Shown piece by piece: positions 1 through 18,921 of a stretch of DNA of 64,000 nucleotides; position 1 is the first letter of the stretch; each line of letters starts with the position of its first letter. Where the stretch lies: contig CM119372.1 in assembly GCA_051294905.1 (NCBI GenBank), forward strand, positions 16,494,001 through 16,558,000, read 5' to 3'. Source of the DNA: Botryllus schlosseri. Taxonomy: Eukaryota. Made by a program: the position numbers and the translations under genes. Under the pieces are notes generated by a model, which did no database searches, was not told where the DNA came from, and worked only from the letters and a program-made list of their open reading frames with translations.

Positions 1-3000
1 CTCCTCGTCTTCCAGGTATCCGTTCTTAAAGTCCTTCGACGTGAGCTCCACGACTTCAGTTTTGGCATATCTGCAAACAAGCGATAGAAACTTTCATATA
101 AACGCGATGACGCATCCGAAAATTATCGCCAGGTACGATAAAACCGCAGCGTTTAATTGTATTTTTCGAGCACCCTCGAAACTAATCTTAGAAGTGGGAT
201 TAAAAAAACATACGGGAGTATGATTCGGTTCCAAACACAGCTTCGCGTAATCACCTAGCGAAAGCACGGGTAAATCACGCCGATAATCAAGCGGACGAGA
301 TCAACGCGAAATGTCAATGATTACTCATCGCACAGCAACACTAAGGTCAATTAATAAGCATTTCCAAGCCGATTACAGGTCGTCAGCTCAAGCAACCTTA
401 TCCGATAGTACCATGTCACACATACACACACGCGCGGACGCGTTATCCAAATCAGCAGAATTTACTTTCAAACCCGCATAGTATAGTGGCTCAGCTAGTC
501 CCGCAAGTCGCCTGGCGCATTTGCTTACTAACACATGCCGGTAGGAGTTCAAACCACGAATTATCATCACGACTGTATTATGAGCAAACAACAGCGATCG
601 AAGGAGTAAAGAAAAGAACGGAAACGCGGTACGAAAACATTTCGCATATCCTCAAGGTCGATAGCATATAATCCGGGTGTAGTAAAATTTAACGCGAGAA
701 CACGCGACTCGCCTAAAGGCCGCTGACAAAACGCGTCATACGTTCTCGATACAACGGTGAGAACACGCGACAATACGCTCGCTATCTATATGCCTGCGAG
801 TGTAATTCGTTTGCGGTAGTAAGTACGATACATTATGATTATGTTCCTAGTCGCAGCAGTGATTCCGCGGATCGTGAAAAAACGGCATTACAACGCAGTG
901 TTGTCGACTAAAGGAGTCCGTACGTTTTCAATGTAATTGCAGCGACTATCTGCCTATCAATAAACGCATCTCCGCAACGCAAGTACTGGCCGAGTTCGTC
1001 GGAACAACTTACTTCATCGCCCATTCCGCCAGCTTAAACGCTCGCCGATCCCAGCCACGAAACACCTCGTACAGCGGGTTGTGCGATTCTCGTTTCCTAG
1101 GCGGAAAAAGTCGAATTTCCGGATAGGAATCGACCGCGTGAATCCGGCAGAATTCGCTGTGGCCCGGTTTCGCGCAGTCCACAGCGCCGACTTTGATGAT
1201 TCCCCCGAGAGTCTGCAGTAGACACCAAACACCAATTACAGCGAGATGTCGAGTAAGTATCCGATTTTTGAATAGATATATATTATGATATATTCGGCCG
1301 ATATTCAAAGGATATGGCATCTAGTTTAAGGCGATTATCCCAAACTTCAGAGGATTTATTTGAATTGCTATTGCTATGCTTGGACAAAACGTAAACTAGA
1401 AAGGGTCGCATCTGGACGCATGTAAGCTATAATAAATATATCAATATTCCCAGTCTAACAGTCGCAGATTTATAGGTCTCCCACTCCATACTAACATGTT
1501 GTGACGTCACCAACACTACCGATATGTCTGTCAAAGTCCGGTACCAACTGGACATTATTGGCGAAATAATCGGTCGGTCTCTAGTCAGAGCCACCGCAGA
1601 ATGTTGGCGTGGAAAAGCACAGTGGAAAATTCAATAACAGCGCGCTGCGTACGCCATAAGATATACAACATTTATAGCCCGTGCCGGCTAATTAAGAGGT
1701 GTCACTTGAATTCAAACTTCGCTGAGAGCATTCGACTACTTTCGCGACGTTTTTTTTTCAATGTCGCAATATGACGCTTCAGAACTACGGAATCGACAAA
1801 CTAACGAATAAATGAATGGTTAATAAATGTCAGCAGCCGTGTCACAATCAGTCAGCGGATAAAATAGGAATTCGCGATGTCGCGGAAGAGTCCGGCGTGT
1901 AACTTAATCAGCTTTGATGCGACGCAAGAGTAAGATAAGCCTGAGCATTAGCGGCAATCCAAACGGCAAAGCGCAGAACACGAAGAAAGAAACTATAGGC
2001 GTTATGAGGCCGGATAGCGTAACGGTAAAGTGATATATAGTCTGAGGCTGCAATTAGCGGCGGGTAATGCCACTGGCGGAAGCGATCATTCGAGAAATTT
2101 TGATGACACTGGCTTTTTCTTATTGAGATACCCCGAATCGCACTGCCCACCATTTCCGCGCTTTGACGCAAAACAATCCATTTTCAAGGCGTATCACCAA
2201 TCACCATTCGGTTGCCCGCGATTGGAATTGCCATTTAGACCGCCTAAATGCCCTAAATTGTCCCAAAATACACGTCAAATTAGGTTCGCAGGCATGAACC
2301 ACAACGGCGAATAGGGATAGACGGTTCCAGGAAGGTTGCCAGCGAATTCGGCACTTGGCAGTGAATTCTAATTATAATATACTCCTATACCCCATCCTAA
2401 CCTAAACCATAACCCAAAATCTCATACCGAATTCATTACTATATGCATGCCAATTGTCGAGTGTCGTATTCACTAAGTGCCGTATATCACAATTCACGCT
2501 CACAGTCAGTCTACCATTCGTTTTCAAATTCAATAATTCAATATTGTCCCAACGCTTTTATAGTTATTACATTCTCAGGTCAAATTCCCACCTTGGTCAG
2601 TACAACCGTGGATGCACCAATTCGAGAATGTGCATGCCAATTTCTCAACATCGAAGTCCTCGGGAAAGAACAGCATTTCGTAATCGCATCACGGAGCAAG
2701 CTCATGCCCAGGCTTCAACACGACTGCGTCCGTTATCGTGACATTCAATCCGGATCGCCGAACCGGTTTCTACCGATCACGCCGCCGCCGCGTGTCAAAG
2801 GCGTGACTCGCAAAAAAAGAGCGCCTTCGCCTTGAACCGCGCCGGAGCGCCATTTTTTCGCCGGAAAAGCTCCTCAAAACTAGTAATTCCAGATTTAAGC
2901 GCCGCTCAAGAAAGCCCTCGAGCGGCGCAGCGAAAAGAAATGAAAAGCGATTGCGAATCAATGTTTTAAAGCATCAGCCGGCTGCGCATCGGCAAAAAAC

Positions 3001-6000
3001 TTTAATCAGGAGCATGTAGCATGTGCTGTCATGGAGCTCCAACACGAAATAGAGCAAACCTTAGCCATCCTTCTCCACTCCGGCAAAAGGCGCTGACATG
3101 GCCCGCACCAATTCGCGTAAAAGTCGACCACCCAGGTTTCTCCGACAGGTCGCCGTTGTACCATCGACAGGAATGTCTTCGGCGTTAAGTGCACGTACGG
3201 CGGGTTGATTAAATCCTGAAATTCAAACAAAAAATGGATGAGTATACGCCAACCGTCGCGCGCATGGGTGTCGGGTTTGTCCTGCAGAGTTAAAAATGTC
3301 AAATCGTTGCATACCGTAAATCGTGATTGATTCTATCTGTCGGATATCTCGCCGCCTGTGACAGGCACAGGAACCGCAAAGGTACATCTGACACGGGCGA
3401 TGGCAATCTCCGTTCGTATGCGACGTAACAGAGACTTGTCTAGCGCGTTGCTATCGCAAGATCCAACCGTGAAAACCGGTTGGGTTACGAAAAGGCGCGG
3501 TCTGCTGGATAGGAGGAATTTACAGCATTAATTGCGGCGAATTGACAAGCCATTACGCTAGTTTCTGAACGATTTTCGACTACCGCGCGGAGATTGATGA
3601 AATTTTGCGACATGGTGACGAGGATGAGTGCATTTTTCATTAGTTGCCTGCCACCTATACTACGTAAATTCAATATTCAGATACAGATACAACTTTCAGT
3701 ATGGAAAATACACATGTTAGTAATATTGCAACACCTTAATTAGCACGAGGTATAATCGCTTCTACGTATCCGAGACATTCGCCCACTTCGCAACACAAAT
3801 TACACTACACGGGTTGTGAAGTCACACAATACGGTACTCTTGACAAAGTACGGTTTAAGACATAAACGGCGCCATACGTAATGACGGCGAAGGACTGAAA
3901 GAGAGCAAGAAGGATATAGCACGTCATTATTCCGTCAAAAACAAACGCGAATTCACCGAAATAGCAACGAAAACGCAAGTGCCTTGACATTTGCGCTCTT
4001 GAACCCGCGCGGCTTAATCACATCGTAGACGTGTAGAGTAAAGTATGATTTTTCAATTACGATCCTTATGACAAATTGCGACAAAGTATGCGTAGCTTCA
4101 AATGCCAAAAATGAACGAATATCGCAACGGCTTCCATGGATACGTCATCAAAATAACGATCGGAGAATGGAAGCCGCTCGGAAGGCACAAGTCCGGAAGT
4201 TAAATCAGTACCGGTTTACTTGAGGTCATCAACGCATGGGTGTACGAAGCGAATAGCCACGCGTTTCGAAAAAGCGATCTGGCGTAACAAATAATAGGAT
4301 TTATTAAGTCTATTTTAACGTAGAAACTATTATCCTGTACTGATATCGCGAAGATTAAAAGCACTTCAGAAACCATAGAGGAAATTACGGGCAATTAAAA
4401 TAATGCCCGTCGATAAGAATTGTGGTACTTCTAACTACATCTACATCCCCAAGTGCGTCGGTGAATAATGAATATCGGGTTCATTCATACTGCGAAAGAT
4501 GAGTATAATTAAGTATGGTTGAGGTGAATGGGTTTATATATAATTCTAGCTTATTTCCGCGGCTGTTTGAAATCTGTCAGCAAATCATGCAGAAATGTTT
4601 TCAGAAACGGTTACTTTTCAGGGTATCGTATGACATTCCACAATCGGACATCATTTCAATGAAAAATGTTCATGTTAACCGTATCTTAGCTCAAGTACAT
4701 ACCTCAAGAAGTAAAGCACTTTCCAAACCCACCAAGCCTATGCAGGCATTGAATCACGTCCCCACTGATTTCGCCGTTTCGCACCGGCAACCACCCTAAG
4801 GTGGTCAGTAACGAAGTACTTCTATACTTTTCGGAGTAATCAAATAGGTTTTTCCTGCTTGCATGACTTATTCAAGATTACTTCCACATCTACTTGTACA
4901 GTTTGCTTGTACTATTTACTGTTTACACTTTGGACCATATAACGTAGAAAGCAGTCCTTGGAATGGATATGTTGGCACCACTTTCACGAGCGAAATGATC
5001 ATAACAGCCGGACGAAATAGCCCCTGTAACGCGAGAACTGGAAATATTTTGGAAAATTGCACCTAAGGTGCAGTTGCAGCGCAATTTACAATGTCATTAT
5101 TCAATTTACATTAGTCGCAAAGACAGATATTGCAGTTTCGATAATAGTCACCTCAGACACTTTTGTGAGTGAAATTATCATAACCGGGCACGTAACAGAA
5201 TATATTTTAGAAAAACTACTCTGTTGTAGTACCATCAGTCATTCTGCATCGTCGTGAAGATGCATCTTGAAATTTCGGAAGTTGCTCCCTTCGATTTGCT
5301 ACTAAAAAGTATGCAGTACACTTCATAAAACTAGTAGAGCACTTTTTTTTTCGCAATTCACTTTTCGGCTCCCACTTGTGGCAGTTTTGACTCACCTTCC
5401 ATATCGCTACTTCTACTTGTAATTCAGCAGAAATCGACGATGTTACTTCTACTTCTACTTTGAGTAGCGACGGTCACTACTCTGTCCACCATTGCAACAA
5501 TCGTAATGAGGAATGGAGAACGCATTTCGATCAAACACCACTGTGAGAGGCAAGGTAAAGATCGATAGATACACTAGGCACAAACCTGCACAAACTGATT
5601 GATCCCGTACGAGCTATGCTGTCCGTTGTACTCGGTTACGATTGTGCCGTTGAAGAGCATCGTGGTTGGGTAAGACTCGACGCCGTACTGCGAAGAAAAG
5701 CCAATTACCGAAACATCGATGACGTCATACACGCCTTGCTGCGTCTACACTCACGTTATCGCAGATTTCCGAGAACTTCGTGCAGTCGATAGTTCCGAAT
5801 TGAATGGAAGGAAGAATGCGAGACGCTTCTCTCAGCTCGGGGAGCAACGCACGACAGGGCGGACACCACTGCAAAAAAACGCGCTATTACAACAGCCTAG
5901 ATCAGTGGTTGCTAATCCGGGGTTCAAACGAGCCCCAAGGATTCGCTGAGACAGTGTCGGGGGGTAAACCGAAGGTCAAGACACATACCCAACTCATACC

Positions 6001-9000
6001 GCAGAAGTCACACTTATTTGCGGTAATTATTTGTTATCATCTTCTTGCCATGTTTTAATGATCCTGATGCACATTTCATTTTGTGCACATGTATTCTCTA
6101 GAAATTTCATTGTTTGGCATTGCGGCAGATCTTTGTTTGTGTGACTCTGCGAAAATGTGGGATTCGCCAAAGGCTTCCAGGTTAGCGTAATGGTTCATCG
6201 GGTTAACAAAGGTTAAGAATCACGGATATAGTGGCAGATTATTAAAGTGTGTTGGCTATTCATAATGCAAAAGTCGAGGGATGAAGATCCCGACTGCGCT
6301 AATCAGAAGCCCGGCAACGATGTAACACGAGAAATGGTCAAGTGATTGTGAGCCTCACAGCTCAATCAATAGTGCCCTCTATGTGGAGATTGTCTTTCGA
6401 TCTCTCTGAGTAGTAAATTTGTGATTCTACTTGGTAATTGTTTAAGTTACATTTGACCGTGTCTCAGGGATAAGCTCGGATTATAGGCGGCAAAGAAAGT
6501 GAGCTGGTAGTCTCAATCGAGTTGGCAATCAAGACTCCATTGAAACAAATATAACGAAGACGAACTATCGTTTGAGATGGGCAACGACCAAAACGTACGT
6601 TACAAACGACAGTTCCTATTAGTTTTAGTGAAACGAGCACTCACCGGAGCAAAGAAGTCGACAAACCAAGGCTTCTCGGAGGAATTGATTTCCCCGTCTT
6701 CGAATATTTCCGGATTGAGTGTGGTCACCTTCGTCTTGGCGCTTTCCTGCGCGAACGCGCTCAGTTCTGAAGTGCCCTGTCGCCCTACATGGGGAAATGG
6801 AGGCGTTGTTACCCGATATTACACAATAGTGTGCGACACTTGATTGCGAATTGCGAATATGTGTCAAGATCGGAGGTAGTTAGTAACGAAGTACTTTGAA
6901 CGCTCTCGTATTCGACATTTCGTGCTTGTGACGTCATATTTTGTGTTACGATTGTTGATATACGATGTTCTTTTGAATTCTCTACTAGTTGCTGACGATT
7001 ACCCCTGACGAGTGTCAGCCGAAAATATTGGGGTTCATTTCAATATGAATATACTATTCAATTGTATATTGAAGTTCTGCACCTCCAAGAAGCCGTTTAA
7101 ATACTTTTTATGAGTACTTACAAAGTATATTTTGTCTACTTCCACTACATACTGAAGTGGTTATGATTTTTGACCAGTTCCATTTCTACTTAACGATGTT
7201 TCAGTTAAACTGAGTTACTTTTCCCATTTTCTATTAGTTAGTTTTGGGTAAAGTTTGCATCACTTTCACGAGTGAAATTGTCATAAGAATCACATGAAAT
7301 AGCCTCTGTATCCTGGTAACTGAATATATTTTGGTAGATTGCACATATTTGTAGTGTCCTTGGTACTTTTCAAACCTTCCATTATCCAATTCCACTTGAG
7401 GTAGATTTTACACAACTTAAAAATCGTTAATTTTTACTTGTAATTGAGTAGGAATCTACTTAATCTGACTTCTACTGGAGTAGCAACACTGACTATTTTG
7501 ACCACCTCTGGTTACTGGTTTGGTTATGGTTGCGGGTAGCAGTACCACATGCAAAAATGTCACATGCCAGGTTGCTGTTTCTCATTGTTTTACATGATCA
7601 AATGTCGGGCAATCACAAATGTCGGGTACCATTGATATTGAGAAGGAAACAAATGGTCCATGCCACAAAGTGTGGATGAACAACTTGGCTAGCAGTCGTA
7701 TGTTCGTTCAATCAAGGGTCGACGTACAATTGTACATGCAGTACAGGTTATACCAAGATGTAAGTTACAAAGTCTGACCTTGAAGCGAATAAGCCATCCT
7801 ACCAGTGTTGGGATGACTCCAGTCACCTTTTTCGTGTGACTTGACTTGACTCGAGTCACTTCGCTAAAATGACTTGACTTGACTCGGCGTATCAGAAATG
7901 TGGATTGACTCGTGACCCGGAGCAAAATTCACGAGTCAATTTCAAGTCATCAAGTAATCGGTGTCGATAAAAATCACTGTATCTTGCATGATACATATGA
8001 TTGTTGGCGAAACGCTGGTGTAACCCGTGAGAGCGACCAATCATTCAATGATCGTGCATTCTACTGAGCCTGCATTGCTCTTTCACAAATAAATTGACCA
8101 CAAACGAAGTGATCGAACTCGGAGTCATAAACTAGTAGTAAAGTAATTTAAAAACAAAATCTATATTTCTGTTCTCTGTTCTTGCCTTAACAAAACCTCT
8201 TGTTTTATTGAAATTGAATTCGAATATAGTTTATACTCAACCATTGGCGCAGGCTCGAATTGTATCATATCAATTTGTAAATGGCTAATAAATCGCATTT
8301 TTCAATTCGTTTCTCTAATCTGCATTCTCTATTTTGGCTGGTAACTAAAAACTGAGGCTATGCAATTACTTACGTAGTTGAACAGTTCTACGTGTGTGTG
8401 AGCGATACAGCGCCTTCTTGCGTGTATATATTTAACTCTATATTCGTTCATCGGTTTAGAATCTATGACCACTCAATCTATTTCAGACCGCTAGCAAAAT
8501 GCAATGACGTAATCATGCCTCATGCCCCATACTTCGAAAAGGCAACTTGACTTGAATTGTGACTTGACTCGAGTTACCTCCAAAAATAGAGTGACTTGAC
8601 TTGACTCGAGTCACCATTGAAAATCGATTGACTTGAGTTAACTCGAGTCAAAATGTGCAATGACTCGAAATGACTTGTGACTCGAATGTAGTGACTTGAT
8701 CCCCACACTGCATCCTACCATAGTTGACCATGTTGGGTTTCGTAACGAACGCTTACACATGGGTGCCAAGTAAATCCCTGGAATTTACAGTCAATCATGA
8801 GAAGACAACATTTTATTGCAGTGTGTAGGCTACTCGGGGACTCTGATGACAAAATTAAAAAGCCCACAAATTTCTTACCGTGGAATATTTCAAACATGTC
8901 CACGCCTCTTCCCTTGAATACGACAGTGGTCGGTGCTTCGATGTACATCGCTTTCTTACAGAAATCCTTTTCCTTATCACAATTGATAATCACAACTTGG

Positions 9001-12000
9001 ATATTCTGAAAATGAAAAGTTGGTGAAGCGTCGGTGATTTGAATAAGGAGCGGTGCAATCCGAAGATGTAACGATTAGTAACGTTGACATGATCGCTAAT
9101 TTTGTGCAATGCGCTGTGTGCACACCTGGTTTTACGCCTTCCTATCCCGATAATGTTGAAATATGGGTATTGGAGGTACATTTCCTGTCGATCGTCACAT
9201 TGAAGATTTTCGTATTACTCGGTACATAGTTTTGGTCAGATATTTACTGTCTGGTAAAAGCTTGATTGAGTGACAGCTCATTTGAATTAGAAATGAAAAT
9301 GGCAATCAATTTTATGTCAAATAATTCAAGTTCATGTGGGTCGATTATATCTGAGTGACAGTTCCCTCGGATGATAATGTCGATGATGGTCATTTGAGCA
9401 ACAGATAAATCAAGGTCAGGTTGGTTGATTTCATTTGTACGACTGTTCACCCAAGTGAACAATGCTGAAGATGGGATAGCGGTTAGGTATTGCGGTTTGC
9501 GGTCAGGTTAGGTGGGGTTTACGGGTTAAACACGAGTGAATAAAATAGAAGGTGCTAACACGTCGCCCGGAACAACTTTATTTCTGTAACTCAAACCAAT
9601 AAAACAGCACTTTTTTATAAATTGACTCAGTTGATATACACAAGGAGAGACTACACCTGATGAGAGCAGCTCTAAAAATTTGAGTTAACAATTTATCAAC
9701 GTTGATAGGTTTGATTCAATTACATTGCATTCAATAGGTTTCCTCTAGTCCTTGGTTGCTACGTTGCAGCTTCCATAGTACTTCGATGAAAACGGATTTT
9801 AGATTAGCTTGATTCGATATGGTTCGAGGTTGTAGCCTAGATTTTTCCTTTTGATACCTTGTGATATTTTACAAGTTGTGAATAAAACATGCACAGCACA
9901 GTCGATTGATTAGCTCTACAGATTATGCTGCTGAAACGTCCGCATATCTTCTAATTTCTTCTCTTGCCACAAAATGATTACTATCAAGCATGATCAATAT
10001 TAGAGAAAATACAGGCCTACACACTCATCCCTGTGAAGTGCAATTCTTGTCGGTTTGTACTATTCATTTATCAGTTCATCACACTCGCTGTTCATCAACG
10101 CTAGTTGGAGGCTACTGAATGACCGGCAATTTAAGATCATTAGGGCTGTCGTCTGGTAAAATTGAATGATTTGTCATCCAATCACATCGCTGTGCTTCAG
10201 TCATTACTTACGGAATAATCAATAAATTATTATTGAAGCAGAAGCATAGAAACTGTCAAAGTGAAAAATAGCAACTTTCTGAGCACACCAGACTCAGTAA
10301 AAGATGGATTATTGATTGCTATAGCAACAATGTAAAAATACATGACAGTTTCTGCACTATGTACTGCAGTACAGACACCACAGTTTTATGCCACTGGGCT
10401 ATCAAAGGAGTAGGTCTACTGTCGCCAGAAACAGTTGAAGCAGACCAGCCTATCTTATGTTCTGAAATACACGATCACGGCTTTATATGAATGATCAAGT
10501 GCATGCAACTCGATCACAGTATTAGGACCCACAGCAGCTATATTTCCTGCAAAACCAATCATTCATCGACGGGAAGTAAGCCTTGCAAGAAAGAAACAAC
10601 TGTCACATAAGACAAGAAAGTTAACTAACGTGTTTTTTCAGTATGATGGGCAATCTCTTCAGGCTCGTGTCGGTCCGGTCCACAGACTCCTCGCCGAATT
10701 GAAAAAACACCAAGCTGGCTTTGGTTTTCACTTGGAGCTGGTATAAGAACATTCGAAATGGCACACAGCAGGGTATATACATATCACAGCAAAACTGCTC
10801 ACCTCCAGTTGCTCGCTTGTGACAACCGGCAGTCCGGGTACGAGATCGCGCAAGATTTGATCGTATATTTCTTTCGCATCGAGGGAATTCAAAGGAATTC
10901 CGCGTTCAAGTTGATCCGGAAACGCATCCCGGGGGTAAAATATCAGTTCGTCATTATGACCAAGTCTCTTGCACAATTCCGGCGAGTTGACGCAGTCAAT
11001 GGTGGCGACCGCAGCAAAGTCCCTCTGCGGAGAAAACCATGGTGATGAGCATACTCAGACTCACGCATGCTTAATATCGTACTAATGCTGTAACTTTTTT
11101 TTCAAATTACAAGTAGAAGTAGCAATTTCAATTCATGCTAAATATACCCAAGATATAAATGCATAGTTTCATAACTACTCCAGTAATGATGAAGTAGATA
11201 GGGATGAGGTGTCACAAACCTTTAACAGTTAGTCAACTGACACAGACAGCTTTCAAAATTGCAAGGTGCATCTCGACACATAATGATGCAACTTTTCAAA
11301 TCATGTTTTTTTACACAGAGACTACACACAGCCCGGTTATGTCATATGTCAATTCTCATGAAAGTGTTGCAGATTCATCAAAACACTACTTTGTACACAG
11401 CAAAGTTGTAAAAAAGTAGCTTGTCTCAAAAGCGGAAGCACTCAAAAACAAAAATCGAAGCAGAAAAAACCGACACCTAAGTCAATATCGGAAATCTGGT
11501 GACTTATTTAAATTTCAGACATGACAGATCAGAAGTTCTATTCTCGAGTATGGCAGCTACCGATAAGGTCTAGTCTATGACCAAAATTGAAAGCTTTGCG
11601 AAATATCAAGTAACAAATATGCCAGCAACCACACAATTCTATATGAACACATCCCATATACCAGCATTCCAGCTAACTTCCGTTTCGTTTTCAGAGTGGG
11701 GCAGTTCATTCCCGAATCAGAATCCTCTTCGCCTTCGTTGGAATCTCCGCCACAATACGAGACGACCCACGGCAATTGGGTTTGTTTCGAGACTTCGCTC
11801 TCGAAATTGCCGTCCCAAAGCTCAACCAACTGGACTGTGACGTACTTCATCACAAACTTCACCAGATCCCTTTTGTTTCGGTCGCCCTGATAGCGAATGG
11901 GCTGGACGGAAGATATGCGAGAATTAATACGTCACAGATATTGACTTTATAATTGTTATTGGAAAATCCCAATTGATTCGGACAAAACGAAATTAGGAAA

Positions 12001-15000
12001 TCTAATAGCATGCACTGACATCTGAGAGGACCGTACATAAATAGGCATGCAATAAGAGGGATTTCAAATGCTGAAGCTGAGAAAACCGATGCATAATCAG
12101 TGGACCCGAATAACCAAGAAGTAATTTGCACCGGTCCAGACAAGCAACTTTGCCAGAAACCCTACTTTGAATAGACACGCTTAAGCTATCGTATCCGGAC
12201 AAGTGTATTCCGGGTCACCAGCAGATCAAATTGCGCGAGTTGAAGATATCGCGCATTATCATATCAGATTATTAAGGCACAATGTAGACATGTTGGCCAT
12301 TTCTCCAGAAATATCACTTCTTTTCCAGTATAACGTGTTTTCTCCGTATGAGAGGCGTGGACTTGTAGATTTTATGCAGTATATATGCAACACCATAGTA
12401 ATGGTAGTTCAGTATAGTTGTAGCAAAACTCTTTTTCGAAATAAATTGGTAGGATTTGCCTAACAGCATTCTAGTGTCATTCGTTTCCAGCACTTCTGAG
12501 AACGGAGGTTAGAAAATCTTGTGAAATTTGATATCATTCGGAATCTAATCACAAAGACTTGAAGTCGGACAAAATCTGGAGCTCACAAACCGTAAACAAG
12601 ACAATGAAGTGCACTGTGCGCAAGCAAGGGTCATTGAGTGACATTTTCTAATATCAACAGCAGCCGAACCGCCTCTCGCAACGAAAAAAGCAGATGGTAC
12701 TCATTGATTCGACGATTCAAATCACCAAACATAGGCTCTACACTCAACTCATTTGCTGTTGAACACTCGTTCAAAATCATTGAAATTAAGATCGGTCATC
12801 ACGCGCAACTGTGGTGGGCCATGCAAGTAAAATCACATAATATTCTAACCGGTTTGCTGAGATGAAAGGGATGAGGACCGTATCAAAAGTGCGTGTGCTA
12901 CGGTCGCCAGTAACAAAGTACTTCTATTTCTCAAAGTACTTAAGTAGGTTATGTCTGCTTCCACTACTGACGCAAGTGGTCATGCTTTTAAACTTGGAAT
13001 TTTTCAAGAAGGAATTAGTTTTAGGATGTGTTTAATGTTTACGTCCTTTCAACACGGGAAAATGTCATAACAGCAACGTGAAATAGGCCCTGTATCACAG
13101 CAACTGAATATAATTTGTAGCATAATTAGCCATTTTGTGTTAGTAGTATCGGCGATGCATCTTTCAATATTGAAAATACCATACCTTCGATTACACACTT
13201 TTACCTCTACTTGAGTGCCAACTCTGACTACCATGACCCCCTCTGGGCACGTGAGGGAAATATAATGAAGCATAAATTTGACATAGCCGGTGATGCCCAG
13301 CATGGTTCAAATCGGTATTCAGCACATAACACTGAATACAAGAACCTTACACAATATTCCGACCACAGCGAGCTCTACGCTATACCTCTGAACCATTGTG
13401 ATAGAGGTTTAGTCTTGGGTATGAAGTCAATCCACGCCGTATGCACCAGAAGCGATTCTTTCCTGTTTTGTAATACAATGTTGAATGAGACAAGTTTGCA
13501 CGCAACCATTCAACAATGAACCATTCGCCATATGCACTACGCAGTGACAATAGAATGGTATTCCCGCTATTTTAAAATTGATACCAAGCGGACAGAACGA
13601 GCAAATAAAAATGTTACTTGCTAAAGGAAGACATATGTTTCATTGTAAACAGCCAATCAAATCACCTCCACATTCAAATGCACCGATATTCACGACTCCT
13701 TGCAGCTCGTTGGCTACCTCTCGCCACTTTTCATGCAAAAGAAAAAACCACATATTCAAAGTAACGGCGCCATGCAACTTGCTGAAATCAACTGAAATGA
13801 ACTTGCGAACGGAAGAGTTAGTTGTTAAATAGATTCTATATCGCAAAATATAAAAGATTTAGTTTCTTCTGCTCAAAAAATCGTGCAGTGGCGGTCGATG
13901 TACCTCAGAAGGAACATGCAGTATTAGTAAATCAGAGAAGGCTGCTGCATGCTCATCATGCGTCGGAGTCCCGTTGCGACTTACCCTTCGACCTGGCGTG
14001 AACAGCATGAGAGTTGGATAGCTGTGGACGCCATTGTCTTGGCAAGTCCATCTATTGTCGCGGCAATTCATTGCGCCGATGTTGATAATGCCTTCCATCT
14101 CTTGGGCGAATGCTCTCCACTACATTTTACAGAGTTTTAACAATGACAACTTCGGACGATACAAACACAGGGCCATAGATTGCCGACTCGAATAACCGAA
14201 CCCAGTCAGGTATTGGTTGGGACAAATATACATCGTATTCAAAATGCACGAAGCCTTACAGCACCGGAAGTAGCTCGCATGTAAGGAAATACATTTAATC
14301 AGTTAACTTATTGTTTAGAAGCAGCACGTATCACTGCGCATGAACAACATGACTTTGTGCGACACAATTTTGGTTGGTCTGGTATAAGAAGTTACAAGCT
14401 GGAACAATTCCGTGTCCTTTTACTACACACTACTATCACATTATATCCTTGTCTGTGACACTAGCACATGGTAGGCTACTCGACTAGGAATCAAATAATA
14501 TAATTCGACTAGACTTGTTTTGACTAAGTCCTATCACATCATATATACTTACAGTAGGTGCAAGTTCGTGACAATGTGAACAACGCGGAGAATAGAAATT
14601 AATGAACCATATCTCTCCAGACTTGACGGCGGAGTCTGTGGAAATAAGAGAAAGATTAGAGCGTGGTAACACAGAATTCTCTAATCTATAAAACACTGGC
14701 TTGTACACAAAGTAGAAAAACATGGGTAATATAGGTGGGTAGGTAGGAATTCTTACCAAACTCCGACTGGTCCAGCGTAGTGACTTCAGGATCATCATCG
14801 TAGATACCTGGAATTTTGGTGAGAATGTTATTAAAAATTCATAGGAGAGCGTAAGCTTTTGAATTTGCGGGTCGGTATAGGTTGATATCTTAGAAAGTCG
14901 TCAGCAAAGAGCATTCAGAGTCAGTGCGTAAGCCCTGATAAACTAAAAGTGCACGCATTGCTTACCCAACATGTAGGCAAATAAATGCATTGTCAAGATA

Positions 15001-17648
15001 AGTCAATGATCCCTTACACAGTTACACTTGATGATATCACCTCGTCGCCATGAGATATTTGCAATTCAAAATGACGTCACGTGTGGATGATTTTTGAAGT
15101 TATGAACAAAATCAAGAGGTCACAGGTCAACTACACAACCCCAGGGGTCAAGCAAAGGGTTAAAGTATCAAGTAGGATGTAAATGACCAAGTGCACCCTC
15201 AACAAATTTAATATGATCAAAATATGGCAAATATAAATTTCATGTATGGATTTTTGACATTTTATCCGCTTGAGTCATCACAAAAACAGCGATTTTTGAA
15301 TGGGCAAATCTTCAGTTCTAGTTGACAGGTTTTCATAAAAGTAGGTTTTCTGAAATCAGAAAATCAAGTTTTGTAAGCATATCAATTTTCAGTAAAATCT
15401 AAGACGTTGCATTACATTTTTTTCGTTTTCCTGGATCACTTGATATGGAATGACCCGCTTGCAATTAGAGCAGGCCAATTTGCCATGGTTATGAATTATG
15501 ATATGTAGCAATCACACTGCATAGACTATGGATCAAACAATCTGGAATATCTTTGCAAATTCTTCTATGTGCCAAAGCATTGTGCAAGTGAAAGGTGACT
15601 ACATCGTAGTTTGTAAATATCGTAATGAATGATACACTAAGGACGTCCGGCCGTTCGTTATGATTACCACTGGCCTTGGAATTTTCTAGGACCAACATCA
15701 TATGCACAGAAATTATTCAAGAGGCTTGTATAAGACTAATACTTGGCAGTCAGAATTTTGAACATCACCGAGTAGTATTTTTTATTCCAAATTTCAAATA
15801 ACAGAAGGTTGAGAAAAATAGATTGCAGGTTGCAGCCATGCATTGTACCAAATTCATCTTTGTAGAAGTTGTAGCTTTCGTATCTTCCTCCCTTGAAGTC
15901 TTCTTTCAAACCCTCTTCACCATAACGATCATATTTTTTTCGCAGTTCTTCGTCCTTGAGCACTTCATAAATATTTGTGATTTTCAAAAATTTTTCATGG
16001 GCTTCTGGATCATTCTGAAATAATGGTGGTGTGAAATTAGTATTCATAAAAGTATTCAGTTACATAATACAAATATGCATATTACAGATACATACCATCC
16101 AAGACAAATTATGGTAATAATAATTCTTTAAGGCAGTGTATGCCCGAGATTGGTAGCATCATAGGCCAGATTAAGAGAGGCTTTATCTCTGTAATTACCA
16201 TATATAATAGGCTACATAAAAATAAATACGAAATACAGGAAATCATTAAAACTACCATCACAGTTATCACAAACTTGACAAGAATTCAAGATAAGTACAA
16301 AATTTACAGCGATTTCGAGTTGAGCACACCAAAGAGAAATTTCAGTAAATGAGAAGAGACTAGTCTTTGCCTGATTTTCTCAAAAAACGCGTTGCATCGA
16401 GTACACAAAATACCTGTTGCTATTAAATTAATCAAATCACAGGAGATTGCGGCGCTTTCAAATGTGAATCATGGCTAATTATATCAAGTGCAAAATACTG
16501 ATGGCTGGTATGGTGCATTTTATTATCAGAATATTACAACGATGTTGAAAAGAACTGATTAAGAAGTTATGGTCTGTTGTAGACTTGTAGGTATGTGAAG
16601 ACAGTGTGATTGACACGACATACTTAGACAATAGTTATCCTATAATCTAGGGTTGTCAGACACGTTTGAAGGGAGTGGAGGGTGCTTCTACTCTAGAAAA
16701 ACACTGGACTTGGACGACTGGACGTCATAATGTGCATATTAGATTTGTGACATCACTTCTTACTACTTTATCTACATCCATGCTATATTATTTCTTGTGA
16801 GAACAACATACTTTTCAGCAATTCTATAATGGTTGCATGTTTGGTTGCTTGGTCTGCTTACAAAGAGGTGCGGACAAGTAAAAATGTTCTGCTATTTTAC
16901 AGTACCGTATTCCAGTTGAAAGCTCAACACTCATTCTGTTCAACTGAATTCCTGATGATTCATATAAATATAATGGAATAATTTTTCTTTTTTGTACCGT
17001 CTGTTTTACAAAGGCTCACTATCAGGCATTTGGTTTGTTACTATTATAATCATTTCAAAACACCAAAATATTGCAAAACCATCTAAAGCTGCATTTCGGT
17101 TCTATCATTCCATGCAATGCACCTCTATTCACACTGTCTTATGGGTCAGGCTGCAGGACTGTTAGCAGTTACAAACAAATTTCTTATTGCAGTGGTCATG
17201 GGAGAATCAATTGTTGATTAGATAACGCCCGTAAAGGCCAGACTGGAACACTGGTTGTTTTTGGAAATAAATTGCGAGTGAGTGGCGTGACAGATGGGTT
17301 TGTTGCATAGAATAATTAGGTAACCAAGCCACCAATTCCATTCCACTATGGGATAAGGGTAGTACCGTAATGTTAGCCTTGTATGAGGAATGACATTTGT
17401 TTGATGCTTTGCACGTGTGCACTGTGCAGAAGTTACTACACAGAGTTCACTACGGTACTTACAGTGTTTTTATCGGGGTGATGAATTAGCGCAAGCTTTT
17501 TAAAGGCTTTTCGTATTTCTTTGTTCGTTGCATCTTTAGAAATCCCCAACACTTCATAGTAATCTTCGGCATATACAGCGTGGATCCATACGAGCTCAAT
17601 AAGGGAGGCTAGCACGATAGCAGTCCGGAATGTTTTTGCCCCGTTCAT
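1..17648 (-). CDS. DNAJC10: DnaJ homolog subfamily C member 10 (ERdj5), ER disulfide reductase/co-chaperone; multi-exon, 3' end beyond the window
   Basis: Phase-consistent GT-AG exons: 17463-17648 (signal peptide, J domain with HPD), 15849-16014, 14757-14807 (GIYDDDPEV), 14553-14635 ([13 protein letters not shown]), 13985-14119, 11662-11901, 10803-11024 ([10 protein letters not shown]), 10630-10737, 8879-9005, 6645-6784 (PWFVDFFAP), 5755-5868 (WCPPC), 5586-5687, 3060-3215 (WCGPC), 1013-1212 (YPEIRLFPP), 1-70 (partial). Order and motifs are colinear with vertebrate ERdj5 as recalled. Confidence 0.96.
4799..5494. mobile_element. Non-autonomous DNA element, family N (GTGGTCAGTAACGAAGTACTT end; TTCTACTT-rich)
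   Basis: The same terminal motif recurs at about 6871, 12901 and 56396; body similar to 7100-7510. Confidence 0.6.
5903..6225. mobile_element. Degenerate hAT-like MITE
   Basis: CAGTGGTTGCTAA ... AAGGTTAAGAATCACGG ends resemble the CAGTGGTTCTCAA TIR family in this window; no clean TSD. Confidence 0.45.
6871..7510. mobile_element. Family N element carrying a nested Penelope-like fragment (about 6890-7093)
   Basis: Ends CGGAGGTAGTTA / TGACCACCTCTG; the insert matches 62208-62410 (reverse) and 50226-50390. Confidence 0.65.
7803..8710 (+). mobile_element. hAT-type MITE, family A, copy 1 (GACTT subterminal repeats)
   Basis: TIR CAGTGTTGGGAT; perfect 8-bp TSD CATCCTAC. Confidence 0.9.
13386..13462 (-). 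CDS. DNAJC10: Putative alternative exon 5b, part 2, of DNAJC10 ([26 protein letters not shown])
   Basis: Acceptor caaaacag, donor GAG|gtatag; 77 nt, phase 1 to 0; paralogous to the second half of exon 5 ([25 protein letters not shown]). Confidence 0.75.
13666..13726 (-). CDS. DNAJC10: Putative alternative exon 5b, part 1, of DNAJC10 ([20 protein letters not shown])
   Basis: Acceptor ttttcttttgcatgaaaag, donor GAG|gtgatt; 61 nt, phase 0 to 1; paralogous to the first half of exon 5 ([19 protein letters not shown]). Confidence 0.75.
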
Positions 17649-18921
17649 CCGATTCTTCGCCAGTCGAGAACTGTCACGAATCACCCAACGACGCGTCTAC
17701 GGACGAGACTTGCTGTTTTGGTTGGAACTAACACCAATGCAAATATCAGTTGCAACTTGCAATCACCCTTAGCTCAAAAGCCGGAACACACAAGCAACGC
17801 AATCGTCTCATTTCCTGGTTCAAAGGTTAGATGCTCAATGAATGCTTGATTAGTGTTGCATGTCACCAGCACAAACGTCACAAAAGTGAATTCGGCATTT
17901 GACGGCCCCTAGTCGTAATCCCAATGATGTATATGACTGACTGATACTAACCTGGCCTATCCAACCCCTAACCCTAACCTAGTCAGTAATTCCAACCCTT
18001 GCCCCCCTCTTTGATGGTGAACGTACTCGGTTTTATTCTCGGCAGTAGAACTTTCTGAACTGTCATAAGCCAATATCTGGGCTTACGGTGACAACGAACG
18101 CTAAAAAAATCTGATAAAGGACGCGCTCAAAAAGTAAACTAAAACACCAAGGAAAGGCGTCTAAGAGAAAAGATAGCCGAATAAAGATCAGGATGAGGCA
18201 CTGTAGCCGACAGAGGCTAGTGACAGATTAAGTAGGCTTACCATACGTCCTCTTGTAAGAGGATTAGTCCACCTTTTTGACTTTGTTGAAAGTGTCCTCG
18301 GACGCACTGGCGTAGCAGCATGTGCTGCCGCCCCTGGCTCTCTTGAAAATGCCGCCCCCCTCGGTAGACCGCATCAAATTTCGACATCGATTGATGTTCA
18401 AGTAATCTTGTCAATAGGAATAATTACAAATAATATGCCGCTTCTCAGCCTCACCGTCTCGACGTTAATGACGCCAAAAATATTAAAAACAAGAAATAGC
18501 GAACGAATGTATTGTACAAATAGAAAATCAATGGCCGCCTCAAAGCAAAAGCAGCGATAATATCCTCAAATTCAAGTTTTTGAACGCGTAGTCTCTTTCT
18601 ATAGACAGAATGGATGGAGCTGATAGCCGATCATTATTCATGATAGAACTAAATATATAAGACTTAATCAGTTTGAGCTTTGAGAAGCTCCTCACACAGC
18701 TCGCAGTTGAAACACCAATGTTCAGATAAAGTTTCAGACACGAGCATAAATACGGTGTCGAATCAAGTAGCTTTGCATTAAACAACCACTGTAAAACATC
18801 AAACGTTGTTGCACTACGATCAAACGTGGTTTCACTGCTCCGCACCAGCCTCTTAACCCTGTTAAAATCTCAAGTTGAACAACTTCAAATGATTATAACT
18901 TAATTTGTGTTCGTCCTAGAG

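What the first reader, a model, noticed from the sequence alone, without database searches (positions are those of the whole stretch)
13386..14119. Hidden one-exon versus two-exon mutually exclusive switch that rebuilds half of ERdj5 thioredoxin domain 1
Seen: downstream of exon 5 (13985-14119, 135 nt, phase 0-0; [45 protein letters not shown]) lie two small AG/GT-bounded segments, 13666-13726 (61 nt) and 13386-13462 (77 nt). They join in matching phase into a stop-free 138-nt, phase 0-0 paralog ([46 protein letters not shown]). By my manual alignment 20 of 45 residues are identical, including both Cys, NIGA and SYP. Known: this segment follows the CSHC active site and carries the cis-Pro loop that contacts substrates in thioredoxin folds. 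Inference: strong divergence with preserved frame, splice sites and structural residues suggests purifying selection, giving two ERdj5 isoforms with the same CxxC but different substrate-facing surfaces. Classical mutually exclusive exons are single-exon pairs, so a split partner would be unusual and easy for annotation to miss.
Basis: partly seen in the sequence, partly recalled or inferred. Interest (0 to 1): 0.88.

Follow-up and report, generated by a model that had tools for sequence, protein, structure and literature searches.

The report
Ancient alternative thioredoxin exon in ERdj5
This sea-squirt gene for the ER disulfide reductase ERdj5 carries an old, still intact second version of the exon that builds half of its first catalytic domain; related sea squirts use one version or the other, so it is a real but so far undescribed splice switch.

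Summary
On the minus strand, exon 5 of an ERdj5/DNAJC10 gene (13985-14119) has a diverged in-frame copy, 5b. It is split into 13666-13726 and 13386-13462. All pieces have AG/GT borders, and 20 of 46 aligned residues are identical.

The organism is an ascidian. Styela clava, Ciona intestinalis and two unnamed marine transcript sets each have full-length isoform pairs that differ only in this segment. A Clavelina lepadiformis model also carries the 5b type.

In a tree the six 5b-type segments form one clade (support 96/88) and the nine exon-5-type segments another (97/96). A recent duplication in this genome alone is rejected (p-AU 0.001). The copy therefore predates the split of three ascidian orders and is under selection.

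Exon-sized reading frames that look fish-like and protostome-like suggest the ancestral exon was unsplit, so the intron inside 5b looks like a later gain (inference).

In this species only the exon-5 form was seen, in three contig runs and one thin raw-read run. Use of 5b here is inferred.

The event is already in automatic RefSeq models of relatives. I found no paper on it. It is a new member of a known kind.

The parts
17463..17648 (-). ERdj5 coding exon 1: start codon, signal-like N-terminus and first half of the J domain
   Evidence: Sequence read. Pfam DnaJ, E 7.9e-14. Matches P0003 residues 1-60.
15849..16014 (-). Exon 2: second half of the J domain
   Evidence: Pfam DnaJ, E 3.3e-7. 96% identical to P0003 residues 63-118.
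14757..14807 (-). Exon 3 (51 nt)
   Evidence: AG/GT borders. P0003 residues 118-134. The loose ends of the RNA contigs at 14636 run on into this exon.
14553..14635 (-). Exon 4: start of Trx1 with the CSHC active site; constant in both forms
   Evidence: The joint 14553>14119 stands in 3 contig runs and in 4 raw reads.
13985..14119 (-). Exon 5 (135 nt, 45 aa): the common, ancestral-type version of the second half of Trx1 (end of helix 2, strand 3, helix 3, cis-Pro loop, strand 4)
   Evidence: The joints 14553>14119 and 13985>11901 stand in contigs of X2, X3 and X6. 82% identical to Styela X2 and 93% to P0003. Secondary structure is taken from the Styela X2 model.
13666..13726 (-). Alternative exon 5b-1 (61 nt, phase 0 to 1)
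   Evidence: tblastn with Styela 5b, E 2.6e-8. No joint seen in RNA of this species.
13463..13665 (-). 203-nt GT-AG intron inside 5b (phase 1); probably gained after the duplication
   Evidence: An in-frame stop follows 7 codons into it. The homologous exon looks unsplit in 9 exon-sized reading frames, fish-like or protostome-like (inference).
13386..13462 (-). Alternative exon 5b-2 (77 nt, phase 1 to 0), with the cis-Pro loop of the alternative form
   Evidence: tblastn with Styela 5b, E 1.4e-8.
11662..11901 (-). Exon 6 (240 nt): end of Trx1 and linker; constant
   Evidence: Contig pieces 11662-11901 in X2, X3 and X6. 80% identical to P0003.
1..11027 (-). Rest of the ERdj5 gene in the window: exons near 10803-11024, 10630-10734, 8814-9008, 6645-6785, 5740-5877, 5586-5687, 3057-3218, 1012-1221 and 1-93. 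The last exons lie beyond the window's start.
   Evidence: Exon-by-exon matches to P0003. CPPC is visible in the frame 5725-5883.

Best explanation
The region holds an ancient tandem duplicate of the ERdj5 exon that encodes the second half of the first catalytic thioredoxin domain. That half is the end of helix 2, strand 3, helix 3, the cis-Pro loop and strand 4, directly after the CSHC site.

The duplication happened before the three ascidian orders sampled here diverged, and both copies have been kept. Mature mRNAs carry either exon 5 (45 aa, C-x6-C) or 5b (46 aa, C-x7-C, Glu before the first Cys, more basic helix 3 and loop). This gives two ERdj5 enzymes with the same active-site motif and a different surrounding.

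In this genome 5b is cut in two by a 203-nt phase-1 intron, probably gained after the duplication. Its halves are 61 and 77 nt, so either half alone shifts the frame. Only 'both halves' or 'neither' gives a full-length protein.

Shown: the duplicate, its borders, its conservation, and either/or isoforms in relatives. Inferred: that this species splices 5b, that choice is exclusive here, and that the two forms differ in redox or substrate properties.
For: - Anatomy.
- Family: J domain and thioredoxin domains. The Styela orthologue matches mouse ERdj5 structures 5AYK and 3APO over its full length, E 2e-225.
- Gene copy number: the genome holds one ERdj5 gene and one copy of this region.
- Isoform pairs that differ only in this segment:
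  - Styela X1/X2: 30 differing columns, all within columns 165-208.
  - Ciona X1/X2: 30 differing columns, within 160-203.
  - P0008/P0138: 26 differing columns.
  - P0010/P0142: 28 differing columns.
- Distribution: of the 139 fetched proteins of 200 aa or more that were screened, the 5b type occurs in six, all from tunicate-type clusters. All non-tunicate ones that could be read there are C-x6-C.
- Tree of 27 segments: 5b clade 96/88, exon-5 clade 97/96, window 5b with Styela 5b 97/95. Holding window 5 and 5b together is rejected, p-AU 0.0011.
- Rate: window 5b is 59% identical to Styela 5b. Whole-protein identity of the near relative P0003 to Styela is 68%.
- Conserved positions: 11 of the 14 invariant 5b positions are kept and the other 3 changed conservatively.
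- Codons: 11 of the 20 residues shared by 5 and 5b use different codons; dN 0.68, dS 1.67.
- Fold: AlphaFold2 gives the same elements for both Styela isoforms. Block pLDDT over the segment is 80-89 for the 5b type and 85-89 for the exon-5 type.
- Frame: half inclusions shift the frame and meet stops.
Against: - In this species no contig or read joins 13726, 13666, 13462 or 13386. Three contig runs carry only 4>5>6. The raw-read run gave only 10 reads. Contigs drop minor forms, so this does not show absence, but use here is unproven.
- The one Clavelina 5b-type model starts in the intron before 5b and lacks the J domain and CSHC, so not every 5b record is a clean either/or partner.
- Including both exons (273 nt) or neither keeps the frame, so nonsense-mediated decay cannot enforce exclusivity.
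- The intron between exon 5 and 5b-1 is 258 nt, too long for steric blocking.
- I found no intron complementarity better than shuffles.
- Whether the 5b intron exists in other ascidians could not be tested.
Confidence: 0.8

Rival explanations
1. 5b is a relic in this species. The ancestral switch existed, but this lineage stopped splicing 5b recently and the exon pair has not yet decayed.
For: No 5b joint in four runs from four studies. The near relative's only transcript-derived protein, P0003, has the exon-5 type. 5b evolves faster than exon 5: 59% against 82% identity to Styela.
Against: The frame is open and all four splice borders are intact. 11 of 14 invariant 5b positions are kept and 3 changed conservatively. 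A 14-residue identity to Styela spans the junction. In the one unspliced X2 contig over 13608-13868, the six located substitutions and the 2-nt deletion all lie outside 13666-13726; this is suggestive only.
Confidence: 0.12
2. 5b is used, but not as a strict either/or partner. It is co-included with exon 5, or it serves as the first coding exon of an internally started, N-terminally truncated transcript like Clavelina X2.
For: Co-inclusion keeps the frame. Clavelina X2 (P0125, 658 aa) begins with 12 residues read from the intron before 5b. An in-frame ATG lies 10 codons upstream of 5b-1 in the window. No enforcing mechanism was found.
Against: Four full-length pairs carry J domain, CSHC and exactly one of the two segments. 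No cluster member read carries both. A duplicated half domain would not fit the thioredoxin fold (inference). The upstream residues look like a translated polypyrimidine tract, as expected where a model is extended to the nearest ATG (inference).
Confidence: 0.06
3. Chance open frame with chance similarity.
For: 10.9% of intronic 138-nt windows are stop-free.
Against: Orthologous 5b segments exist in six sources, and their clade has support.
Confidence: 0.01

Closest known systems
Tandem exon duplication-derived, mutually exclusive homologous exon substitutions (surveyed for human genes in PMC8373072 and PMC9741552; passages read)
   Same: Adjacent homologous exons with the same phase and nearly the same length. 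Both copies are conserved across distant species. The isoforms are identical except for the swapped region, which rebuilds part of a folded domain.
   Different: DNAJC10 occurs in the main text of neither paper, and the event looks tunicate-specific. One partner is split by an intron. Co-inclusion would stay in frame, and no enforcing mechanism was found.
Multi-exon homologous swaps: GNAO1 (two final exons swapped for a duplicated pair) and the tropomyosin N-terminus (first two exons swapped for one homologous 5' exon) (passages in PMC8373072 and PMC9741552)
   Same: A homologous region is carried by a different number of exons in the two forms. The exons of one form always go together.
   Different: Those are terminal swaps tied to alternative ends or promoters. 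Here the swap is internal, between constant exons 4 and 6.
NCBI automatic isoform models of ascidian DNAJC10: Styela clava X1/X2, Ciona intestinalis X1/X2, Clavelina lepadiformis X1/X2
   Same: Orthologous event. Segments of 46 and 45 aa are placed directly after the CSHC-bearing exon.
   Different: These are database models without a description in print that I could find. Their exon structure could not be read here, so it is unknown whether their 5b is split.
Mouse/human ERdj5 (DNAJC10), PDB 3APO, 5AYK
   Same: Same domain order. The full-length match of the Styela orthologue has E 2e-225. Trx1 carries CSHC.
   Different: No 5b-type segment was seen in any vertebrate sequence screened. Cluster representatives can hide isoforms.

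Membership tests
ERdj5 / DNAJC10 | N-terminal J domain | tested here: met
   Pfam DnaJ on window exons 1 and 2, E 7.9e-14 and 3.3e-7.
ERdj5 / DNAJC10 | Several catalytic thioredoxin domains with CXXC motifs, Trx1 = CSHC | tested here: met
   CSHC in exon 4. CPPC in the frame 5725-5883. The remaining exons match P0003, which has four Pfam Thioredoxin stretches, E 8.2e-86.
ERdj5 / DNAJC10 | C-terminal KDEL-type ER retention signal | not testable with these tools
   The last exons lie beyond the window's start and I did not fetch them. The relatives P0003 and P0005 end in KDEL and NDEL-type tails.
ERdj5 / DNAJC10 | Full-length collinearity with solved ERdj5 | tested here: met
   Styela X2 against 5AYK and 3APO, residues 27-804, E 2e-225. 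This was tested on the orthologue, not on the window's own spliced protein.
Mutually exclusive exons from tandem exon duplication | Neighbouring homologous exons with matching phase and similar length | tested here: met
   135 against 138 nt, both phase 0-0, 20 of 46 columns identical.
Mutually exclusive exons from tandem exon duplication | Both copies conserved as separate orthologous groups | tested here: met
   Two clades with support 96/88 and 97/96. A within-genome clade is rejected, p-AU 0.0011.
Mutually exclusive exons from tandem exon duplication | Transcripts carry exactly one of the two | tested here: inconclusive
   Met in relatives: four full-length pairs, and no member read carries both. 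In this species only the exon-5 form was seen.
Mutually exclusive exons from tandem exon duplication | A mechanism that enforces exclusivity (short intron, competing RNA pairing, frame/NMD, incompatible splice sites) | tested here: inconclusive
   The intron between exon 5 and 5b-1 is 258 nt. All sites are GT-AG. Co-inclusion stays in frame. Duplex energies are no better than shuffles: -97.0 against a mean of -107.1, and -104.0 against -108.5, 12 shuffles each. Only the two halves of 5b are coupled by frame.

The most novel reading that the evidence does not exclude
Ascidians run ERdj5 as a two-state reductase. Splicing swaps the shell around the unchanged CSHC site of Trx1: the residue before the first structural Cys, helix 3, and the residue before the cis-Pro. 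This retunes redox potential or client choice, and it is deployed by tissue, stage or stress. It may be linked to the role of dnajc10 level in thermal buffering of Ciona embryos (PMC4649386; passages read, which mention no isoforms). The later intron gain inside 5b, giving halves of 61 and 77 nt, acts as a frame lock that makes inclusion of the alternative all-or-none.
Probability: 0.3. Interest if true: 0.65.

Novelty: new member of a known kind. Interest (0 to 1): 0.5.

Why it matters
ERdj5 is the main disulfide reductase of the ER. It feeds ER-associated degradation and helps fold LDL-receptor-type clients (established knowledge, recalled). A switch that rebuilds half of its first catalytic domain and has been conserved across ascidian orders implies that the shell around a fixed CXXC motif is a tuned, selectable property.

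It offers a natural pair of enzymes for asking what sets redox potential and client choice in a PDI-family domain. It also matters for work on ascidian stress tolerance that measures dnajc10 as one transcript. And it is a clean example of an intron gained inside one partner of an alternative exon pair.

Tried and rejected
- **RNA holders:** no RNA holder listed. 14 small-share rows were only guessed to be RNA.
- **Lay of X2, X3, X6 and X23:** no 5b joint. X23 gave only 10 reads from about 6% of the run.
- **Homologue search with a 5b-only profile:** only the two cluster representatives already known, 2 of 149 candidates.
- **Profile search of 1.84 billion representatives:** 132 hits with E up to 0.001. 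None scored like a 5b type. None of those my pattern matched had C-x7-C. Many rows did not match the pattern at all, so the screen is partial.
- **Metagenome scans with the 5b profile and with P0138:** nothing. I therefore got no genomic DNA of another tunicate and no nucleotide pairs for dN/dS between species.
- **Vertebrate isoforms as a guide to exon borders:** none breaks inside this segment.
- **Repeats and duplex scans for competing RNA structures:** nothing above chance.
- **A third copy or other hidden duplicate exons in the gene:** none.
- **Papers:** searches found no description of an ERdj5/DNAJC10 alternative thioredoxin exon. I read only listings, plus passages of PMC9741552, PMC8373072, PMC4649386 and PMC3912159. 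I read no supplements, and the qPCR primer table of PMC4649386 might show which isoform was measured.
- **Earlier scan notes:** nothing on this gene.

Full report
**Observation.** The window's minus strand carries an ERdj5/DNAJC10 gene.
- Exon 1 (17463-17648) and exon 2 (15849-16014) encode the J domain (Pfam DnaJ).
- Exon 3 is 14757-14807.
- Exon 4 (14553-14635) ends just after the CSHC active site.
- Exon 5 (13985-14119) and exon 6 (11662-11901) follow.

Between exons 5 and 6 lie two AG/GT-bounded pieces, 13666-13726 (61 nt) and 13386-13462 (77 nt). Joined by coordinates, they give a stop-free 138-nt frame in phase 0-0. It aligns to exon 5 with 20 identical positions in 46 columns and has one extra residue between the two cysteines.

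The open frame by itself is weak evidence: 245 of 2240 intronic 138-nt windows of this gene are stop-free.

**What the gene is and where it comes from.** The window lies in a 495.5-Mb assembly of 219 contigs. That assembly has one copy of this region and one ERdj5 gene. The gene's last exons lie just beyond the window's start.

The nearest protein in the large collection is an unnamed transcript-derived ERdj5, P0003 (809 aa). It is 80% identical over exon 6 and has the exon-5 type. The next nearest named proteins are DNAJC10 of the ascidians Clavelina lepadiformis, Styela clava, Ciona savignyi, Phallusia mammillata and Ciona intestinalis. So the organism is an ascidian, closest to Styela among named species. 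The Styela orthologue matches the solved mouse ERdj5 structures over its whole length (E 2e-225).

**The decisive result: relatives use either segment.** The 90%-identity clusters of the ascidian hits hold isoforms. Pairwise alignment shows that these isoforms differ only here.

| Source | 5b type | Exon-5 type | Differing columns |
|---|---|---|---|
| Styela clava | X1, 821 aa | X2, 820 aa | 30, all within columns 165-208 |
| Ciona intestinalis | X1, 812 aa | X2, 811 aa | 30, within 160-203 |
| Unnamed marine transcript set | P0138 | P0008 | 26 |
| Unnamed marine transcript set | P0142 | P0010 | 28 |

In each pair one member has a 45-aa C-x6-C segment like exon 5. The other has a 46- or 47-aa C-x7-C segment like 5b. 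All eight carry the J domain and CSHC upstream.

Clavelina X1 has the exon-5 type. Its X2 model has the 5b type but starts in the preceding intron.

I screened the 139 fetched proteins of 200 aa or more. The 5b type occurs in six, all from these tunicate-type clusters. Every non-tunicate sequence that could be read at this place is C-x6-C.

**Age and selection.** I built a maximum-likelihood tree of 27 segments: 9 tunicate exon-5 types, 6 5b types and 12 outgroups, over 45 columns.
- The six 5b types form one clade (support 96/88).
- The nine exon-5 types form another (97/96).
- The window's 5b sits next to Styela's (97/95).
- The tree that holds the window's exon 5 and 5b together is rejected (log-likelihood 31.5 lower, p-AU 0.0011).

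With so few columns many inner forks are open, but these groupings are the supported ones. Styela, Ciona and Clavelina belong to three ascidian orders, so the duplication predates their divergence.

The window's 5b is 59% identical to Styela's 5b; exon 5 is 82% identical to Styela's exon-5 type. Whole-protein identity of the near relative P0003 to Styela is 68%. So 5b evolves about as fast as the average of the protein, not like an intron.

The window's 5b keeps 11 of the 14 positions that are invariant among the other five 5b segments, and changes the other three conservatively. A 14-residue stretch spanning the 13666>13462 junction is identical to Styela X1 residues 177-190. This confirms that splice junction.

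Within the genome, 11 of the 20 residues shared by exon 5 and 5b use different codons. The rough estimates are dN 0.68 and dS 1.67.

**The split.** Nine exon-sized reading frames from the representative library resemble teleost or protostome DNAJC10. Each carries the homologous segment uninterrupted. Each starts right at the conserved Trp after a residue that fits a CAG acceptor, and each ends where a GT-type codon begins. I infer two things:
- These frames come from genomic contigs.
- The ancestral exon was single, with the same 5' border as exon 5 and 5b-1.

The 203-nt phase-1 intron inside 5b would then be a later gain. It sits at the extra residue that all 5b types share. Whether other ascidians have this intron could not be tested, because no tunicate genomic DNA was reachable.

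The split has a consequence that follows from the sequence. Any transcript with only one half of 5b, with or without exon 5, is frame-shifted and meets an early stop. Both halves together, exon 5 plus both halves, and neither all keep the frame.

**Structure.** AlphaFold2 models of the two Styela isoforms (38-row alignments, mean pLDDT 84.0 and 83.5) give the same elements:
- helix 155-170, beginning at CSHC;
- strand 176-181;
- helix 186-192 in the 5b type, against 186-191 in the exon-5 type;
- strand 200-204, against 199-203.

Block pLDDT across the segment is 80-89 for the 5b type and 85-89 for the exon-5 type.

The 5b types share three consistent differences:
- Glu instead of Asn before the first Cys.
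- One more residue between the two Cys.
- A more basic stretch from the first Cys on: net +4 to +8, against +1 to +3 in the exon-5 types.

In the five other 5b segments, Phe replaces Tyr before the cis-Pro; the window's 5b keeps Tyr. That the residue before the cis-Pro tunes thioredoxin-fold redox properties is established knowledge that I recall and did not check here.

**RNA in this species.** No listed holder is on record as RNA. I laid three contig runs guessed to be RNA, from three studies, and one raw-read bulk RNA run.
- Each contig run has one long contig joining 14553>14119 and 13985>11901, at depths 53.8, 96.9 and 34.8.
- The raw run gave 10 reads, four of them across 14553>14119.
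- No joint touches 13726, 13666, 13462 or 13386.

One low-depth X2 contig (259 nt, depth 4.3) covers 13608-13868 unspliced. Its six located substitutions and its 2-nt deletion all lie outside 5b-1. That is suggestive but not significant.

Contigs drop minor forms and the raw sample was thin. So the exon-5 form is the major one in these samples, and use of 5b here remains unshown.

**Mechanism of choice.** The intron between exon 5 and 5b-1 is 258 nt, all sites are GT-AG, and co-inclusion stays in frame. So steric blocking, splice-site incompatibility and decay of double inclusions do not explain exclusivity. Repeat and duplex scans found no intron pairing better than shuffles. Without a second genome such scans are weak. 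The enforcing mechanism is open.

**Comparison with what is known.** This is a tandem exon duplication-derived homologous substitution, a known and usually ancient kind of event (PMC8373072, PMC9741552; passages read). Those papers describe multi-exon cases: GNAO1 swaps two exons for two, and tropomyosin swaps its first two exons for one homologous 5' exon. Unequal exon numbers are therefore not unheard of, but those are terminal swaps. DNAJC10 is not mentioned in either main text.

An unchecked note of this scan reports intron-split alternative exons in a springtail Dscam1.

A study of Ciona found that dnajc10 transcript level tracks thermal buffering of embryos. Its main text does not contain the stems 'splic' or 'isoform' (PMC4649386).

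My six paper searches found no description of this switch. It does exist as automatic NCBI isoform models in three ascidians.

**Verdict.** It is a real, old, selected alternative segment of ERdj5 Trx1. It is new as a described case but belongs to a known kind. Its use in this species, its regulation and its biochemical effect are untested.

Noticed in passing
window 18540-18869 (-): An open frame upstream of the ERdj5 start matches the hAT transposase C-terminal dimerisation domain (Pfam PF05699, E 3.1e-7). It is probably a transposon remnant.
   Followed up: partly
window 12589-12694: A 147-nt low-depth X2 contig lies on this intronic stretch twice, with 11 other letters between the two parts (a fold-back-like joint). 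It may be an assembly artefact or a small inverted structure.
   Followed up: no
P0125 (Clavelina lepadiformis DNAJC10 isoform X2): This automatic model starts with 12 residues read from the intron before the 5b-type segment, and it lacks the signal sequence, J domain and CSHC. The window has an in-frame ATG 10 codons before 5b-1. Either the model is 5'-incomplete or a real internal start exists.
   Followed up: partly
window 11662-11901: RNA contigs of three studies differ from the window at 4-5 of 240 exon-6 positions, and the differences are partly shared among runs. The species appears highly polymorphic.
   Followed up: no
P0146 (98 aa, marine metatranscriptome): This transcript fragment of the P0010 species reads on past the CSHC exon into intron-like sequence. 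That indicates intron retention at the same exon border as in the window.
   Followed up: no
P0134, P0135 (Ciona intestinalis UniRef models): These older models end the exon-5-type segment differently from the RefSeq X2 form: 43 residues before the next conserved motif. A different donor or strain may explain it.
   Followed up: no
window 1-93 and beyond the window start: The ERdj5 gene runs off the window. Its last two exon matches lie at G000:C2:16493064-16494081.
   Followed up: no
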